A stretch of 64,000 nt of DNA, from assembly GCA_000092065.1 (NCBI GenBank), contig CP000588.1; one strand, written 5' to 3'. Every line of letters begins with the position of its first letter. Positions within the stretch are counted from its first letter, which is position 1. The position numbers were made by a program, and so were the translations under genes. Below the pieces are notes generated by a model, which saw only the letters and a program-made list of their open reading frames with translations, made no database searches and was not told the DNA's origin. Shown piece by piece: positions 21,710-59,611 of the stretch. The stretch comes from Ostreococcus lucimarinus (lineage: Eukaryota).

Positions 21710-21962
21710 TTTCGCGCTCGCCGCGAGACGCGTCTCCCCCCTCTCTCGACGTCTTCGTCGTCCTCGCCTCACCCTCCCCGGTCACCACCGCGATTTGTAT
21801 TATTTTTACAGCCCTCTCCCATCGCCCATCGTCACCGCGTCTTCGCCGCCCGCTCCAGACCGCCTCTCTCGCCGCCGCTCGCCCGCCTCGAGGGGGGCGG
21901 TTCCCGAGGTCTTAGGGCAACTTCATCGCTCGACGTCCACCTCACTCGCGCGCGCGCTTCCG

Positions 21963-22675
21963 ATGCTCGCCTCGCGACACGCCCTCGCGAACACCGCGTT
22001 CGCGCGCGCGCCCGCGCGTCCGCGCGCCGCCCGCGCGTCCGCGCGCGCCTCCGTGCGCGTCCGCGCCGCGTCCACCATCTACGACTTCACGCTCAAGACG
22101 CTCGGCGGTGGCGCGCGCGACGCGCCCACGGACGGCGAGGACCTCCCGCTGAGCCGATACAAGGGCAAAGTCGTCCTCATCAACAACGTCGCGACGTTCT
22201 GAGGCACGACCGTCAGGGACTTTGTTCAGTTGAACGCCCTGAAGGAAAAGTACGGGGACGACTTGGTCGTCCTCGGCGTGCCGTGCAACCAATTCGGACA
22301 CCAGTGCTACGATAAAGACTTTGAATTGCTGAACACGCTGAAGTACGTGCGACCGGGAGATGGATACGAACCGAAATTCACGATCACGGGGAAGATGACG
22401 ATCAACGGGGACGAAGAGGACCCGTTTTGGACGTTTTTGAAGAATTCGATTCGCGAACCGGCGGACGACAAGGGCGGACTGGGATCGGATCACATTTATA
22501 AGACGCAACCGAACTCCATGCCGATTCAGTGGTCGCCGGTGCGACGGGCGGATGTGACGTGGAACTTTGAAAAGTTCCTCATCGGCAAGGATGGAGTTCC
22601 GGCGAAGCGGTACTCGCCAAAGTTTGAAAACGCAAACTTGACGGCGGATATCGACGCGCTCATGAAGGCGTGAGC
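21963..22675 (+). CDS. GPX: Glutathione peroxidase selenoprotein (in-frame TGA = Sec at 22200-22202), organelle-targeted
   Basis: ORFs 21795..22202 and 22230..22673 are in the same frame, separated only by TGA. Context [42 protein letters not shown] equals human GPX1 NVASL-U-GTTVRDYTQMNELQ...[13 protein letters not shown]. Downstream WNFEKFL motif is present. N-terminal presequence MLASRHALANTAFARAP... Confidence 0.85.
22200..22202 (+). other. UGA selenocysteine codon of GPx (catalytic U)
   Basis: TGA exactly at the NVAS-x-(C/U)-G-x-T active-site position. Confidence 0.8.
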
Positions 22676-22749
22676 GCGGAATCGAGTCGCGCTTCGGTTG
22701 AACTAGAACGAGCTCGGAGTGGAAAGAACCGCGCGCGCCGCGACGTGAC

Positions 22750-22802
22750 GAAGGATGAAGAAAGACCAAACGCTCGACGTAGGTTTTCATTCTTTTGATT
22801 TC
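22750..22802 (+). promoter_or_regulatory. Candidate SECIS element in the GPx 3' UTR (ATGA ... N9 ... AAA ... apical mini-stem ... TGAT)
   Basis: ATGA at 22755-22758, unpaired AAA 9 nt later (22768-22770), apical acg/ctcga/cgt mini-hairpin, and TGAT at 22796-22799 on the 3' side about 80 nt after the stop codon. Helix II pairing is imperfect by eye. Confidence 0.45.
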
Positions 22803-22938
22803 ACGCGACGCCGCGCGAGTTCATCTCCGAGCGCGATGTTTTGACTTTTAATTTTAATATCAAAGTTGTTTTGACGATCGCTTCGGAGCGCGATGCCTCT
22901 AAGCGCGCACCTCGCGGCCTACCGGTTCATCTAATTCT

Positions 22939-23739
22939 CTAAATCTCTTCCTCTCGCGTGAAATCGAGCGTCACACGTCCCTCGTCGTCGCTTTCGTCGT
23001 CGACGATGCTCCCGGTTCGCTCCATGCGCTCGACGAGCGTTCGCGTCAACGCGTCGTCCTCGAACGGCACATCGCGAAACAACGACGCGCTCGAACTTCT
23101 GTACAGCACGCTCACGAAAATTGCCGAGTGTCCGCGCGCGGGATCGCCCTCGCTCACGACGCGAAACCGCCAATCCAACCCCAGCCTCGTCGTCTCGCGT
23201 TTTAGAAATACAAATCTCGCCACGGCTGAGAACGACACGCTCAAGATTATCCCGTCCTCTCTCGTCATACGCAACATCTCATCCATGAGCGCGCGCTTAT
23301 CTTCGTCTCCGTTGAGCGCGTCCAACGTACCCTTATCGATCACGCACGTCGCGCTTCCGTCCGCGACGTCGGCTCGACAGTCCCGGCAATCCGCCGCGCG
23401 ACACCGCACCCGCGCGTCCTCCGCGTACCGCGCCCGCAGCACCTCGATCACCCGTTCGCTCACGTCCAACAGCACGACGTCACCCCTAAACCCGTACTCA
23501 TCCGCCGCGTCGACGCCGATGCTCGACGATCCGCACCCGACGTCGACGAGCGCCGCCGCGCCCGCCGCGCTCGCGCTCGCCGCCGCCCGCAGAAACCCAT
23601 CCGCGACCTCGAAGCACGCCTCCGACGCCGCGTGCCACTCGCGCGCGAGCTGCGACGCCGAATCGTACACCCCGTCCCAGTGCGCGGCGTACGCGCGCGC
23701 CGACGTCCCCTCGGCGCCGGCGTCGTCGCGTCGCGACAT
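22939..23739 (-). CDS. Class I SAM-dependent methyltransferase, EEF1A lysine methyltransferase 4 (ECE2-MT)-like
   Basis: Motif I LVDVGCGSSS, VLLDVS, VIDKGTLDAL. Collinear with EEF1AKMT4. ATG at 23737-23739. Confidence 0.65.
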   Translation of the reverse strand: MSRRDDAGAEGTSARAYAAHWDGVYDSASQLAREWHAASEACFEVADGFLRAAASASAAGAAALVDVGCGSSSIGVDAADEYGFRGDVVLLDVSERVIEVLRARYAEDARVRCRAADCRDCRADVADGSATCVIDKGTLDALNGDEDKRALMDEMLRMTREDGIILSVSFSAVARFVFLKRETTRLGLDWRFRVVSEGDPARGHSAIFVSVLYRSSSASLFRDVPFEDDALTRTLVERMERTGSIVDDESDDEGRVTLDFTREEEI

Positions 23740-32172: not shown

Positions 32173-33417
32173 TCCACCGACACGAAGCTGTATGACCTGC
32201 TCGGCGTGAGCAAGGGGGCGTCGGCGGCGGAGATTAAAAAGGCGTACCGCAAGATGGCTGTGAAGCATCACCCGGATAAAGGCGGCGACGAACAAAAGTT
32301 CAAAGAGATCTCCGCCGCGTACGAAGTGCTGAGCGACGACGAAAAACGACAGCTGTACGATGAATACGGTGAGGACGCGCTGAAGGACGGAGGCATGGGC
32401 GGAGGAGGCGGATCGCCGTTTGATATCTTTGAGGCGATGTTCGGAGGGAATCCGTTCGGGCCGGGGGGCGGCGGCGGACGAGGAGGAGGGAGATCTCGCG
32501 TGCGAAAGGGAGAGGACGTCGTGCATGGGTTGAAACTTGGATTGGATGATTTGTACAACGGGGTGACGAAGAAGCTGAGCCTGTCGAAGAATGTGATTTG
32601 CCAAAAATGCGATGGGAAAGGGAGCAAGTCGGGGGCGAGCGGCACGTGCAACGGATGCAGAGGCGCGGGCGTCAAGGTTGTCGTTCGACAAATCGCGCCG
32701 GGGATGGTGCAGCAAATGCAGACCGTCTGTAACGATTGCCGAGGCACGGGTCAGACGATCAGCGAGAAGGATAAGTGCGAGAAGTGCCACGCTCAAAAGG
32801 TTGTTCAAGAAAAGAAGGTGCTCGAGGTGCACATCGAAAAGGGCATGAAGCACAACCAAAGAGTGGTCTTCCAAGGCGAAGCTGACGAAGCGCCGGACAC
32901 CGTGCCGGGTGACATCATCTTCGTCGTGCAACAAAAGGAGCACCCGGTGTTCACGCGCAAGGGGGACGATTTATTCATGGAAAAAGAAATCTCCCTCGTA
33001 GAGGCGTTGTGCGGGATGAAGATGACCGTCGATCACCTCGACGGCCGTCAACTCGTCATCTCCACCCACGAGGGCGAAGTCATCAAGCCCGGTCAATTCA
33101 AGGCTGTATTCGACGAAGGTATGCCTAAGCACACCATGCCTTTCCAAAAGGGTCGCTTGTTCATCCACTTCACCGTCAAGTTTCCGGCTCCGGGCGACTT
33201 GTCCGAAGACGATCTCAAGGCGCTCGAAAAGATTTTACCCGCGCGACCGCAGCTTAGCATTGACATGGAGAGTGAAAATGTGGAAGAGGTTAACATGCAC
33301 GAGGTTGATATGGAGCAAGAAAAGCGTCGTCGCGAAGCCGAGAGCAGACAACAAAGCCAATACGAGTCCGACGACGAAGGCGGCGGACAACCCGGCGTTC
33401 AATGCGCCCAGCAGTGA
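32173..33417 (+). CDS. DNAJA: DnaJ homolog subfamily A (type I Hsp40: J domain, G/F region, four CxxCxGxG zinc fingers, C-terminal CAQQ farnesylation box), main exon
   Basis: ...[35 protein letters not shown]...[41 protein letters not shown]...GVQCAQQ*. Near-collinear with human DNAJA1. Confidence 0.9.
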
Positions 33418-45654: not shown

Positions 45655-46107
45655 ATGCGTCCATCGTTCGCGACGCCGCGCGCCGCGACGCCGCGCGCCG
45701 CGACGCCGCGCGCGGCGCGAGCGACGCGCGCGACGCCTCGGCGCGCCGCGACGCCGACCCGCGCGACGCGCGACGACCGCGCGAGGGATCTGTTCGCCAA
45801 TTTGTACCGGGGCGGCGGTGGGAAACAAATCTACTACGGCGTGTTTCAGCGCGACGCGCCGGCGAGCGCGACGAAGAGCGAGGAAGCGCGCGCGCGATCG
45901 CGCGATGAAGCCGCGAAGACGCTGACGAACATCGACGCGGAGGAACGCGGACGACGGATGGAGGTGGGGAAGGCGGCGGGCGCGGCGACGGCGGCGCTCG
46001 CGGCGGCGCAGCTGGCGCTGGGGGCGACGCGCGTCGAACGGTTGGCGATCGCGGTGCCGCTGTTCTTCGCGCTCGGGTTCGTGGGAAGCGCGAAGACGGG
46101 GTTGTGA
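45655..46107 (+). CDS. Small hydrophobic protein of unknown function (two predicted TM segments), terminated by TGA with an in-frame downstream ORF continuing to 46272
   Basis: ATG at 45655. ...GKAAGAATAALAAAQLALGATRVERLAIAVPLFFALGFVGSAKTGL-TGA-NIAQAGVWDVDGTGLQDIEDESVATAIRKKVNDFNGKSAAAVAVITAMYVALPV-TAG. Confidence 0.35.
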   Translation: MRPSFATPRAATPRAATPRAARATRATPRRAATPTRATRDDRARDLFANLYRGGGGKQIYYGVFQRDAPASATKSEEARARSRDEAAKTLTNIDAEERGRRMEVGKAAGAATAALAAAQLALGATRVERLAIAVPLFFALGFVGSAKTGL

Positions 46108-46457
46108 AACATCGCGCAAGCCGGCGTTTGGGACGTCGATGGCACTGGTTTGCAAGATATCGAGGACGAGTCGGTGGCGACGGCGATTCGTAAAAAGGTT
46201 AACGATTTTAACGGTAAAAGCGCGGCGGCGGTGGCGGTGATCACCGCGATGTACGTCGCGCTGCCGGTGTAGACGTCGGTCGTCGAACGGTGTCGTTCGG
46301 TGGGATGGTGCGCCGTGACGGCGCGCGCCGAAAGCGCTGACGCGTTCAGCGAGGCGCGCGCTCGATACGCCATCTCACTTTGTGACGCGCGAGAGTTTGG
46401 CGATGTGTTGTAAAATTACGCTTCTTTCATTTCAATCTAGAGAAGACGATTTCGTTA

Positions 46458-57895: not shown

Positions 57896-59611
57896 ATGCC
57901 CGCGGCGACGCACGACCGCGCTTTGGCGTCCATGGTGAACGAACGCTTCAAACTCCACGGTTTGTCCCTGATGGGTGACGCCATGCGCGCCGTCTTAAAA
58001 CACGTCGCGCACGTCGCGCCCGCGACGAGCGAGCGCGAAGCGGTGGACCAGGTGTTGAAAACGCTATCGCGCACGGAACTGTCCAGCGGTGTGCTGCAAA
58101 AAGCGACGATTGAATCGGCGATCGAGAGAGGATTGGCGGAAGGGACGATCGAGGCGGTCGAGCGCGGCGCGCGAGAGATGGACGTCGACGGCGGCGAAGA
58201 CGACGAGGGCGAAGCGATGACGGAGACGGCGGCGGCGATGGTGCACAGCGATGGTTTGACGATATGTGACGCGTTTAAGACGAAAAGATACGCGTATGAT
58301 TCGCAGCGACGGATGTTTGATGAGGCGAGCAAGACGGCGAAGATTGAGAGCGCCGCCGAGTCGAAAATCGACTTGTATAGGGATCGGTTCTTGTTGTTGC
58401 AGCAGCGCTTGTCGCGGTCAAGGCAGTTCGCGAAGCCGACGTTGCAGACGTCCTCGACCGAGGGCATCGCGGAGTTGACGTCGATTCAGTCGTTGTTAGG
58501 GGTGAGCAAGGAGACGAAGTTTATCATGGGATGTTTGAGTCAATTGGAGGACGAACGGTTTTACATGGAGGATTTGACGGGGACGGTGCGAGTTGATTTG
58601 ACGGCGTGCGAGCGCAGCGCGGGGTTGTTCACGGAGAATTGCATCGTGATCGCGCAGGGTGAGGTGCGACCGGACGGGGTGTTTGAGGTCATGGCGTTGA
58701 CGTTTCCCCCGGCGGAGACGCGAGCGGCGACGAGAAACGCGACGAACGCTTTGGATTTCTTCGGCGCGGGGCACATCTTGCGACCGAACGAGCTGGAGGA
58801 GCTCGAAGAGAAGGAACTTGAACGCGTCGGTGAGAGGTTTATCGTGTTGTCGGACGTTTGGCTCGACCAACCACGCACTTTTGATAGATTGGCAAAAATG
58901 TTTGACGCGTTTGACTCGCAAGAGGAAGACGTGCCGGGATTGATTGTCTTCATGGGAGATTTCACATCGAAACCGTTCGGCCCGACGCACTACGACTTTC
59001 GCGCGTATACCGAAGGCTTTGACAAACTCGCGGAGTTGCTGGAGGAATATCCGCGCTTGCGACAGGAAAGTCGGTTCGTCTTCATCCCTGGTCCGGGCGA
59101 TCCCGGTTTGAACGCCGCGCTTCCGCGCCCGGGATTGCAATCATCCGTCATCGGTTCTCTGCTGGAGAAGGTTCCGCGCGCGCAATTCGCGAGTAACCCG
59201 GCAAAAATTAGATACTTTTCGCAAGATCTCGTGTTCTTTCGCGACGACTTGCAGGCGAAGATGCGCAGAAACTGTTTGATGCCGCCCGACGACGATAAAC
59301 TGCCGGAAATCGCGCCCGGCGACGAGTGGGCGAACCGCCCGGTGTTCAAGCATCTCGCGGCTACCATGGTGCAGCAGGCGCACTTATGCCCGTTACCGAT
59401 CACACAAAGCCCGATTTATTGGGAATACGACCACTCGTTGTGGTTGTATCCGGCGCCAAACTGTATTTTCTTAGGCGATCGAACCGAGCAACAATCGCTG
59501 GCCAACTTTGAGGAGACTTCGCTCGCGAATCCCGGATGCTTTTCCGACGACGGGTCGTTCTTGCTGTACATCCCCGCCACGGGTGAGTGTTCGTTCTCAG
59601 CCGTGCCGTGA
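57896..59611 (+). CDS. POLE2: DNA polymerase epsilon subunit B (POLE2/Dpb2)
   Basis: N-terminal helical domain, OB fold and inactive phosphoesterase domain (FIVLSDVWLD, LIVFMGDF, FVFIPGPGDPG, CPLPITQSPIYWEYDHSLWLYP). Confidence 0.85.
   Translation: MPAATHDRALASMVNERFKLHGLSLMGDAMRAVLKHVAHVAPATSEREAVDQVLKTLSRTELSSGVLQKATIESAIERGLAEGTIEAVERGAREMDVDGGEDDEGEAMTETAAAMVHSDGLTICDAFKTKRYAYDSQRRMFDEASKTAKIESAAESKIDLYRDRFLLLQQRLSRSRQFAKPTLQTSSTEGIAELTSIQSLLGVSKETKFIMGCLSQLEDERFYMEDLTGTVRVDLTACERSAGLFTENCIVIAQGEVRPDGVFEVMALTFPPAETRAATRNATNALDFFGAGHILRPNELEELEEKELERVGERFIVLSDVWLDQPRTFDRLAKMFDAFDSQEEDVPGLIVFMGDFTSKPFGPTHYDFRAYTEGFDKLAELLEEYPRLRQESRFVFIPGPGDPGLNAALPRPGLQSSVIGSLLEKVPRAQFASNPAKIRYFSQDLVFFRDDLQAKMRRNCLMPPDDDKLPEIAPGDEWANRPVFKHLAATMVQQAHLCPLPITQSPIYWEYDHSLWLYPAPNCIFLGDRTEQQSLANFEETSLANPGCFSDDGSFLLYIPATGECSFSAVP

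What the first reader, a model, noticed from the sequence alone, without database searches (positions are those of the whole stretch)
21963..22802. Selenocysteine glutathione peroxidase split into two ORFs by an in-frame UGA, with a SECIS-like 3' UTR element
The ORF track shows two same-frame ORFs (21795..22202 and 22230..22673) separated by a single TGA. The surrounding peptide NVATF-U-GTTVRDF...[12 protein letters not shown] is the GPx active site with Sec in the catalytic position (human GPX1: NVASL-U-GTTVRDY). About 80 nt after the true stop there is an ATGA (22755), an unpaired AAA 9 nt later, an apical mini-stem and a TGAT (22796), the layout of a type-2 eukaryotic SECIS. This means the organism uses the Sec machinery, and any other in-frame TGA in this genome deserves a second look.
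Basis: partly seen in the sequence, partly recalled or inferred. Interest (0 to 1): 0.6.

Follow-up and report, generated by a model that had tools for sequence, protein, structure and literature searches.

The report
Known Ostreococcus selenocysteine glutathione peroxidase gene

Summary
ORFs 21795..22202 and 22230..22673 form one gene (ATG 21963, stop 22671-73) with a single in-frame TGA at 22200-02, at the catalytic position of a GPX1/GPX2-like glutathione peroxidase. The TGA is kept in 37 of 40 related loci, and substitutions fall mainly on third codon positions on both sides of it.

Two other window ORFs are 100% identical to Ostreococcus lucimarinus CCE9901 proteins. The gene matches 'GpxA', Chr_8 [565963,566670], published as a selenoprotein by Lobanov et al. 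2007, so it is already known.

- Unpaired G at 22745.
- Core UGAC 22746-49 opposite UGAU 22796-99.
- Helix II 22750-59 / 22786-95.
- Bulged AAA at 22761-63, followed by a mini-stem.

Across eight orthologues my register is 94% paired with compensatory changes.

A second published selenoprotein gene, 'Hypothetical protein 3', lies at about 45655-46272, with its SECIS at 46299-46379.

Interest is low.

The parts
21963..22673 (+). Coding sequence of the selenoprotein glutathione peroxidase GpxA (236 codons plus TGA stop). Residues 1 to about 36 are rich in Ala, Arg and Ser, which I infer to be an organellar transit peptide.
   Evidence: Translation. Pfam GSHPx 107.5 bits. Human GPX2 and bovine GPX1 are the best solved relatives. 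The 708 nt without the stop equal the published O. lucimarinus Chr_8 [565963,566670], and the published GpxA sequence begins MLASRHALANTAF....
22200..22202 (+). In-frame TGA read as selenocysteine (codon 80, catalytic residue).
   Evidence: It aligns with the Sec position of bovine GPX1. TGA is kept in 37 of 40 homologous loci. Some database proteins read it as W. Substitutions are mostly at third codon positions on both sides.
22726..22822 (+). Whole SECIS element (form 2, G-type) in the 3' UTR. Its core begins 72 nt after the stop codon.
   Evidence: The fold constrained to the SECIS register has -38.8 kcal/mol, against -40.8 unconstrained. The 111-nt hairpin has z = -3.3. The same layout occurs in the 3' UTRs of 20 distinct homologues.
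22726..22742 (+). SECIS helix I, 5' strand. It pairs with 22804-22822.
   Evidence: Constrained fold. The register is not testable by covariation because the orthologue alignment is unreliable here.
22745..22749 (+). SECIS core, 5' strand: unpaired G 22745 followed by quartet UGAC 22746-49.
   Evidence: CGTGAC is invariant in all eight close orthologues. T, G and A are invariant in the 19-sequence alignment. The base before UGA is G in 12 and A in 8 of 20 homologues. Lobanov 2007 reports a G before the quartet as typical of Ostreococcus.
22750..22759 (+). SECIS helix II, 5' strand (GAAGGAUGAA).
   Evidence: Helix II is 96% paired in eight orthologues, and 3 of its 10 pairs have changes on both sides. 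For the whole tested structure (helices II and III), 0 of 500 shuffles reached the observed covariation score. Versions with the 3' partner slid by 1-3 columns are 31-53% paired.
22761..22763 (+). Conserved unpaired AAA (the SECIS AAR motif), 12 nt after the UGA of the core.
   Evidence: It is unpaired in the minimum-energy fold. AAA is at this position in seven of eight orthologues and shifted by one base in L004. AA(A) lies 11-14 nt after the core in nearly all of 20 homologues.
22764..22785 (+). Apical part: helix III GACC 22764-67 / GGUU 22782-85, mini-stem ACG 22770-72 / CGU 22778-80, loop 22773-77. This is what makes the element form 2.
   Evidence: Minimum-energy and constrained folds. 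Helix III is 87.5% paired in orthologues.
22786..22795 (+). SECIS helix II, 3' strand.
22796..22799 (+). SECIS core, 3' strand UGAU. G97 and A98 lie opposite A48 and G47.
   Evidence: GAT is invariant in the eight orthologues and the preceding base is T or C. GA is present in all 20 homologues.
22804..22822 (+). SECIS helix I, 3' strand.

Best explanation
The locus is the nuclear gene for GpxA, a GPX1/GPX2-like selenocysteine glutathione peroxidase of Ostreococcus lucimarinus, on chromosome 8. One mRNA carries the whole reading frame 21963-22673.

The UGA at codon 80 is recoded as selenocysteine, the catalytic residue. The other members of the catalytic tetrad are Gln110, Trp200 and Asn201.

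Recoding is directed by a form-2 SECIS hairpin in the 3' UTR (22726-22822). Its parts are:
- helix I;
- an internal loop with an unpaired G (22745);
- a non-Watson-Crick quartet, UGAC 22746-49 opposite UGAU 22796-99;
- a 10-bp helix II (22750-59 / 22786-95);
- a bulged AAA (22761-63);
- an apical mini-stem.

By analogy with other eukaryotes, the core would be bound by a SECIS-binding protein that recruits the Sec-specific elongation factor and Sec-tRNA to the ribosome at the UGA.

Shown here: the gene structure, its identity with the published gene, conservation of the TGA, coding constraint across it, and the covariation-supported register of the hairpin. Inferred: the kink-turn geometry, protein binding, actual selenium insertion in this species, and the transit peptide.
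For: **Gene and family.**
- Single frame with one internal TGA.
- Pfam GSHPx at 107.5 bits.
- Human GPX2 at E 3.5e-52 over residues 56-235. Bovine GPX1 has its Sec position aligned to the TGA.
- The invariant motifs NQFGHQ and WNFEKF are present.

**The TGA is conserved and coding.**
- TGA is present at this codon in 37 of 40 homologous loci.
- Some database entries translate it as W; others splice it out or start after it.
- Substitutions are mostly at third positions both before and after the TGA.

**SECIS register.**
- The eight-orthologue alignment A3 is 93.8% paired.
- Three pairs have changes on both sides, and 0 of 500 shuffles reach the observed covariation score.
- The layout [G/A]UGA, one mismatched base, about 10-11 bp, then AAA occurs in the 3' UTRs of 20 homologues.
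- My pattern scan of the whole window gives two perfect hits against 0.03 expected. Both sit just downstream of TGA-interrupted ORFs.
- Rfam SECIS_1 aligns the second element in the same register: AUGA, c, 10 bp, u, AAA.

**Identity with the published gene.**
- Two window ORFs are 100% identical to O. lucimarinus CCE9901 proteins.
- Lobanov et al. 2007 list a GPx selenoprotein at Chr_8 [565963,566670], 708 nt. They print the GpxA sequence MLASRHALANTAF...NNVA.FUGTTVRD....
- They also state that Ostreococcus SECIS elements have a G before the quartet and a mini-stem.
- O. tauri chromosome 8 carries a glutathione peroxidase detected by proteomics, ostta08g03450. I take it to be the GpxA orthologue because the same table names GPx B to E at other loci.
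Against: - Rfam SECIS_1 gives no match to this hairpin. That holds at gathering score, at E<=10 in 401 nt and at E<=10 in 101 nt.
- The unconstrained minimum-energy fold pairs CGUGA with UCACG instead of leaving the core free. Energy models do not score the non-Watson-Crick quartet, so this is expected but not resolved here.
- No transcript, proteomic or selenium-labelling data for O. lucimarinus itself were available. Protein-level evidence comes from the sister species only.
- Helix I could not be tested by covariation.
Confidence: 0.95

Rival explanations
1. The SECIS is in the register the first reader proposed: core AUGA 22755-58 opposite UGAU 22796-99, unpaired AAA 22768-70, small apical stem.
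For: The motifs exist at those coordinates, and the spacing ATGA-N10-AA fits a loose SECIS pattern. Ungapped pairing above that core gives 9 of 12 pairs in this species. Lobanov 2007 mention one ATGA-type SECIS in an unnamed O. lucimarinus GPx gene.
Against: - Across eight orthologues the proposed helix is 39.1% paired, with three positions never paired and no covariation.
- ATGA becomes ACGA in L004, with a compensatory UCAU to UCGU change, so it behaves as an ordinary helix.
- The AAA at 22768-70 is not conserved, and in the ungapped pairing it would be paired with UUU.
- The constrained fold is 6.4 kcal/mol worse and forms no helix next to the core.
- Only the window and the identical L016 give a hit in this register.
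Confidence: 0.03
2. The TGA is a real stop. The locus would be a pseudogene, two separate small genes, or a sequencing error or strain polymorphism of a Cys (TGC/TGT) codon.
For: Prokaryote-style gene callers split the gene in two in every metagenome assembly. Rfam finds no SECIS.
Against: - TGA is found at this codon in 37 independent loci from relatives at 40-100% protein identity, and no fetched locus shows a Cys codon there.
- Purifying selection acts on both sides of it.
- A conserved, co-varying hairpin with SECIS motifs follows every orthologue.
- The same sequence is in the published genome, where it is annotated as a selenoprotein.
Confidence: 0.01
3. The UGA is read through as an ordinary amino acid, such as Trp or Cys, by near-cognate suppression or a variant genetic code, independently of the hairpin.
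For: Several database proteins show W at this position.
Against: - Those W residues come from gene callers run with a code that reads TGA as Trp. They are not measurements.
- The gene itself ends with TGA (22671-73), as do several orthologues, so UGA is a normal stop in this genome.
- The position is the catalytic Sec or Cys of the family.
- The organism has a published selenoproteome of 29 genes, and its sister species incorporates 75Se.
Confidence: 0.01

Closest known systems
Ostreococcus lucimarinus GpxA (Lobanov et al. 2007, Genome Biol 8:R198; Chr_8 [565963,566670])
   Same: It is the same gene. The length is identical (708 nt) and the printed protein sequence matches. The offset to the neighbouring 'Hypothetical protein 3' is 23,839 nt in both. 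Other window proteins are 100% identical to strain CCE9901.
   Different: Nothing in the coding sequence differs. The published SECIS drawing for this gene was not available to me, so I cannot say whether it was published in the G-type register.
Mammalian GPX1/GPX2 (tetrameric cytosolic selenocysteine glutathione peroxidases; PDB 2he3, 1gp1, 2f8a)
   Same: It shares the Sec-Gln-Trp-Asn catalytic residues. Similarity is full-length, including the C-terminal part that GPX4-type enzymes do not match here. E-values are 3.5e-52 to 3.1e-50, and identity is about 50%.
   Different: It has an N-terminal extension of about 36 residues that looks like a transit peptide. It also has an 8-residue insertion (...GGLGSDHIYKTQPNSMP...) shared with the other algal sequences. 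The SECIS has G rather than A before the quartet.
Ostreococcus-type SECIS (form 2, G before the quartet, long mini-stem; Lobanov et al. 2007, Figure 1)
   Same: It has an unpaired G, a UGA...GA core, an AAA bulge and an apical mini-stem. The second SECIS in the window (46299-46379) has the same layout.
   Different: Helix II here is rich in A-U and G-U pairs. By chance it contains an AUGA that mimics a canonical core.
Rfam SECIS_1 (RF00031)
   Same: The architecture is the same: core, c, a 10-bp helix, u, AAA, then a short apical helix. The model aligns the window's other SECIS in exactly this register.
   Different: The GPx element does not reach even E = 10 against this model. The other element scores 26.2 bits, below the gathering score of 35.

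Membership tests
Glutathione peroxidase (Pfam PF00255), GPX1/2-like | GSHPx domain above Pfam's curated cut-off | tested here: met
   107.5 bits against a cut-off of 27, E 3.3e-31.
Glutathione peroxidase (Pfam PF00255), GPX1/2-like | Catalytic tetrad Sec/Cys, Gln, Trp, Asn at the conserved positions | tested here: met
   The TGA (codon 80) aligns with the Sec position of bovine GPX1. Gln110 lies in NQFGHQ and Trp200/Asn201 in WNFEKF, both invariant across 14 sequences.
Glutathione peroxidase (Pfam PF00255), GPX1/2-like | Full-length similarity to the GPX1/2 class rather than the shorter GPX4 class | tested here: met
   GPX1 and GPX2 align over query residues 56-235 (E about 1e-50 to 1e-52). 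GPX4-type chains align only over 56-161 (E about 1e-19).
Glutathione peroxidase (Pfam PF00255), GPX1/2-like | Peroxidase activity with glutathione | not testable with these tools
   This needs an enzyme assay.
Eukaryotic selenoprotein gene (UGA recoded as Sec) | In-frame UGA at a functionally critical position, conserved in orthologues | tested here: met
   37 of 40 loci have TGA at this codon. The other three do not show a homologous upstream codon.
Eukaryotic selenoprotein gene (UGA recoded as Sec) | Protein-coding constraint continues across the UGA | tested here: met
   Differences from nine relatives are mostly at third positions in the 19 codons upstream and the 40 downstream.
Eukaryotic selenoprotein gene (UGA recoded as Sec) | Selenium actually inserted | not testable with these tools
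   Evidence comes only from the literature on the sister species. In O. tauri, 75Se labelling gives a dominant 25-kDa band that the authors call 'likely' a GPx, and proteomics detects ostta08g03450.
Eukaryotic SECIS element, form 2 | Located in the 3' UTR of the same transcript | tested here: inconclusive
   The core starts 72 nt after the stop codon and lies before the convergent downstream gene, which ends at 22939. Transcript ends were not available.
Eukaryotic SECIS element, form 2 | Core with UGA on the 5' strand and GA on the 3' strand (tandem G.A pairs), conserved | tested here: met
   CGTGAC and GAT are invariant in eight orthologues. TGA is invariant in the 19-sequence alignment, and the 3' GA is present in all 20 homologues. 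The non-Watson-Crick geometry itself is not testable.
Eukaryotic SECIS element, form 2 | Helix II between the core and the AAR motif, supported by covariation | tested here: met
   10 bp, 96% paired, three pairs with changes on both sides; slid controls are 31-53% paired.
Eukaryotic SECIS element, form 2 | Conserved unpaired AA(R) about 11-13 nt 3' of the core | tested here: met
   AAA 22761-63 lies 12 nt after the UGA. It is conserved in orthologues and in the wider set.
Eukaryotic SECIS element, form 2 | Further helix beyond the AAR bulge (the difference between form 2 and form 1) | tested here: met
   Helix III 22764-67 / 22782-85 plus a 3-bp mini-stem. It is 87.5% paired in orthologues.
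Eukaryotic SECIS element, form 2 | Reaches the Rfam SECIS_1 gathering score (an operational test, not a defining property) | tested here: not met
   There is no match even at E<=10. The window's other, textbook-looking SECIS also stays below gathering (26.2 against 35 bits), so the model is insensitive for this alga.
Eukaryotic SECIS element, form 2 | Binding by SBP2 and support of Sec insertion | not testable with these tools
   This needs a binding or reporter assay.

The most novel reading that the evidence does not exclude
Lobanov et al. 2007 reported that the single 'ATGA-type' SECIS of O. lucimarinus lies in a GPx gene, without naming which one in the text available to me. If that gene is GpxA, the exception would be an artefact of the decoy AUGA inside helix II. 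Every O. lucimarinus SECIS would then be G-type, a small correction to the record. A more exotic variant, that both registers are used as alternative cores, is not excluded for this species alone, but it has no comparative support.
Probability: 0.2. Interest if true: 0.15.

Novelty: already known. Interest (0 to 1): 0.1.

Why it matters
It matters little for discovery. The gene, its Sec codon and the general form of Ostreococcus SECIS elements were published in 2007.

It has some practical value.
- Automated annotation still breaks this gene. Metagenome gene callers split it, some read the TGA as Trp, and some eukaryotic gene models splice the TGA out or start after it.
- A canonical-looking AUGA can be a decoy, and only comparison with orthologues sets the right register.
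- Rfam SECIS_1 misses SECIS elements in this algal lineage.

Tried and rejected
- **Rfam on the GPx hairpin.** I searched the whole window at gathering score, then 401 nt and 101 nt around the hairpin at E<=10. SECIS_1 never matched the GPx element. I treat this as low sensitivity rather than evidence of absence, because the neighbouring textbook SECIS also stays below gathering.
- **Covariance model R1.** I built it from the eight close orthologues. It was too sequence-specific: training sequences score 75-83 bits, but the window's other SECIS scores only 15.5 bits, amid GC-rich noise. I did not use it as evidence.
- **MAFFT alignments of the wider SECIS set (A4, A5).** They misalign the 3' strands of distant members. 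For the wide set I used counts anchored on the core instead. That set was selected by a pairing filter, so it is supporting evidence only.
- **Homologue search with the neighbouring methyltransferase.** It returned no organism names. The organism was identified by exact look-up of other window ORFs.
- **The loose pattern ATGA-N10-12-AA-...-GA.** It has 68 overlapping matches in the window and is uninformative.
- **Two weaker hits of my stricter scan (22554+, 51391-).** They have 9 of 10 pairs, and the first lies inside the GPx coding sequence. Shuffles give up to 3 such hits, so I treated both as chance.
- **Pfam on the second selenoprotein.** Nothing significant.
- **ARAGORN.** No tRNA genes in the window, so there is no tRNA-Sec gene here.

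Full report
**Observation**

The window is G+C-rich (63.8%). ORFs 21795..22202 and 22230..22673 on the + strand share one frame and are separated by a single TGA at 22200-22202. From the first in-frame ATG (21963) to the terminal TGA (22671-73) the frame has 236 sense codons, counting the internal TGA.

With Cys substituted for that codon:
- The product scores 107.5 bits on Pfam GSHPx, against a cut-off of 27.
- Its closest solved relatives are human GPX2 (E 3.5e-52), bovine GPX1 (2.3e-50) and human GPX1 (3.1e-50).
- These align over nearly the whole mature protein. GPX4-type chains align only over the N-terminal two thirds.
- The TGA aligns with the selenocysteine position of bovine GPX1.
- The other catalytic residues lie in invariant motifs: Gln110 in NQFGHQ, and Trp200 and Asn201 in WNFEKF.

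**Is the TGA real and coding?**

A homologue search found many relatives, and most database entries start just after the TGA. Several full-length entries show W at that position, as expected when a gene caller reads TGA as Trp. Some eukaryotic gene models, such as those for Bathycoccus, skip or replace the region.

I fetched DNA for relatives from assemblies and from one metagenome scan.
- In 37 of 40 loci with 40-100% protein identity, the codon before GTT[VIT]RD is TGA. In the other three, no homologous upstream codon is seen next to the match.
- Differences from nine relatives are concentrated at third codon positions in the 19 codons before the TGA and in the 40 after it. For L001 the counts at positions 1, 2 and 3 are 2, 2, 10 upstream and 3, 1, 10 downstream.
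- The frame is therefore under protein-coding selection straight through the TGA.

**The SECIS element**

The 3' UTR between the stop codon and the convergent downstream gene (which ends at 22939) contains a stable hairpin. For 22720-22830 the energy is -43.4 kcal/mol with z = -3.3.

It is Watson-Crick paired with UCAU (22787-90), inside a 10-bp helix formed by GAAGGAUGAA 22750-59 and UUCAUUCUUU 22786-95.

Orthologous 3' UTRs settle the register. Every close relative keeps these features:
- CGUGAC;
- a 10-bp helix;
- N-AAA;
- a small apical hairpin;
- the return strand of the helix;
- YGAU.

I counted both registers on the eight-orthologue alignment A3.

|---|---|---|
| Cells paired | 93.8% | 39.1% |
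| Pairs with changes on both sides | 3 | 0 |
| Shuffles reaching the covariation score | 0 of 500 | 431 of 500 |
| Positions never paired | none | 3 |

For the G-type register, versions with the 3' partner slid by 1-3 columns are only 31-53% paired.

The element therefore reads as follows:
- Helix I: 22726-42 paired with 22804-22.
- Internal loop with an unpaired G at 22745.
- Quartet: UGAC 22746-49 opposite UGAU 22796-99.
- Helix II: 22750-59 paired with 22786-95.
- Bulged AAA at 22761-63, 12 nt after the UGA.
- Helix III: 22764-67 paired with 22782-85.
- Mini-stem: 22770-72 paired with 22778-80.
- Apical loop: 22773-77.

In more distant homologues the same position carries either G or A before the UGA: 12 G and 8 A among 20.

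A caveat: Rfam SECIS_1 does not match this hairpin at any threshold tried.

**Independent support from the same window**

My own scan looked for [A/G]UGA, one unpaired base, 10 consecutive pairs reaching a downstream GA, and AA at the right distance.
- It finds two perfect hits in both strands of the window.
- Only 0.03 are expected, and none of 100 block shuffles gives two.

One hit is the GPx element. The other, at 46315, lies about 40 nt after the stop of a second reading frame, 45655-46272. That frame is interrupted by a single TGA at 46105-07 (...GSAKTGL-U-NIAQAGVWDVDG...).
- The TGA, the downstream peptide and a SECIS with a compensated helix II are conserved in relatives at 62-74% identity.
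- Rfam SECIS_1 aligns this second element at 26.2 bits (E 0.0025 in a 201-nt search), below the gathering score of 35.
- Rfam places it in the register AUGA, c, 10 bp, u, AAA. This is the register I assign to the GPx element.

**Identity and prior knowledge**

Window ORFs 57896-59608 and 32254-33414 are 100% identical, over 432 and 387 residues, to O. lucimarinus CCE9901 proteins XP_001419216.1 and XP_001419206.1. Both lie on a 701,771-bp chromosome.

Lobanov et al. 2007 (PMC2375036) describe 29 selenoproteins in this alga, including five GPx genes.
- Their supplement lists a GPx at Chr_8 [565963,566670], which is 708 nt, exactly the length of 21963-22670.
- It prints 'O. lucimarinus GpxA' beginning MLASRHALANTAF and containing ...NNVA.FUGTTVRD....
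- 'Hypothetical protein 3' at Chr_8 [589802,590269] lies 23,839 nt downstream. That equals window 45802-46269, the second gene above.
- From these offsets the window corresponds to about Chr_8:544,001-608,000.

[quoted passage not shown]
- The syntenic orthologue cluster contains OUS47090.1.
- A chromosome-8 glutathione peroxidase (ostta08g03450) and an 'Unknown' selenoprotein (ostta08g03600) were both quantified by proteomics (PMC8834552). Equating ostta08g03450 with GpxA is my inference by elimination: the same table names GPx B to E at other loci.

**Mechanism**

Shown here:
- one gene with a conserved, selected in-frame UGA;
- a conserved, co-varying 3' UTR hairpin with all the sequence hallmarks of a eukaryotic form-2 SECIS.

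Inferred from established knowledge of eukaryotic Sec insertion:
- the tandem G.A pairs form a kink-turn;
- a SECIS-binding protein binds it and brings the Sec-specific elongation factor with Sec-tRNA to the UGA at codon 80;
- the N-terminal stretch of about 36 residues, rich in Ala, Arg and Ser, is an organellar transit peptide.

**Verdict**

The specific SECIS anatomy is wrong in two of its three motifs.

The gene and its neighbour are published selenoproteins, so the finding is already known and of low interest. One small open point remains. Lobanov et al. mention a single ATGA-type SECIS in an unnamed O. lucimarinus GPx gene. If that is GpxA, the decoy AUGA inside helix II could explain it, but I could not check this.

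Noticed in passing
window 45655-46272 (+), TGA at 46105-46107; SECIS 46299-46379: A second selenoprotein gene. Two same-frame ORFs are joined by one TGA (...FVGSAKTGL-U-NIAQAGVWDVDGTGLQDIEDE...), with hydrophobic stretches and no Pfam match. A textbook G-type form-2 SECIS follows: G 46315, UGAC 46316-19 / CGAU 46363-66, helix II 46320-29 / 46353-62, AAA 46332-34. The TGA and the SECIS are conserved in relatives. Rfam SECIS_1 scores 26.2 bits, below gathering. The gene equals 'Hypothetical protein 3' of Lobanov 2007 (Chr_8 [589802,590269]); its function is still unknown.
   Followed up: yes
window 22671-22706: The GPx gene also ends with TGA, only 72 nt upstream of the SECIS core. If that UGA were ever recoded, the protein would gain U plus 10 residues (ARNRVALRLN) before the TAG at 22704-06. 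Many close orthologues end with TAA instead, so the extension is probably not used.
   Followed up: partly
window 22836-22878: An A+T-rich stretch in an otherwise G+C-rich region, lying between the convergent GPx and methyltransferase genes. It can form an imperfect hairpin (GACUUU 22843-48 / AAAGUU 22862-67). It is flanked by repeated GAGCGCGATG (about 22829-38 and 22887-96) and TTTTGAC (22839-45 and 22869-75). It may be a shared polyadenylation or termination region.
   Followed up: no
database proteins P0001, P0029, P0040, P0005, P0009, P0011: Public protein entries for this GPx family are often wrong at the Sec codon. Some read TGA as Trp. Bathycoccus gene models skip the region or replace the N-terminus. 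A 'Pelagococcus subviridis' EukProt entry has a gap at the Sec region in the alignment, and its C-terminal part is identical to a metagenomic protein, P0007.
   Followed up: partly
window 22939-23739 (-): A SAM-dependent methyltransferase gene sits between GPx and the Cauli_VI/RNase H gene in this species. It is absent at that position in the O. tauri-like syntenic contigs L001-L003, so there is a local gene gain or loss between Ostreococcus clades.
   Followed up: no
L024, L025, L028, L032, L040, L041, L042, L043, L049, L055 (3' UTRs): More distant homologues of this GPx carry a true AUGA-type SECIS at the position where Ostreococcus has GUGA. The base before the quartet therefore switches between A and G within one gene family.
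   Followed up: partly
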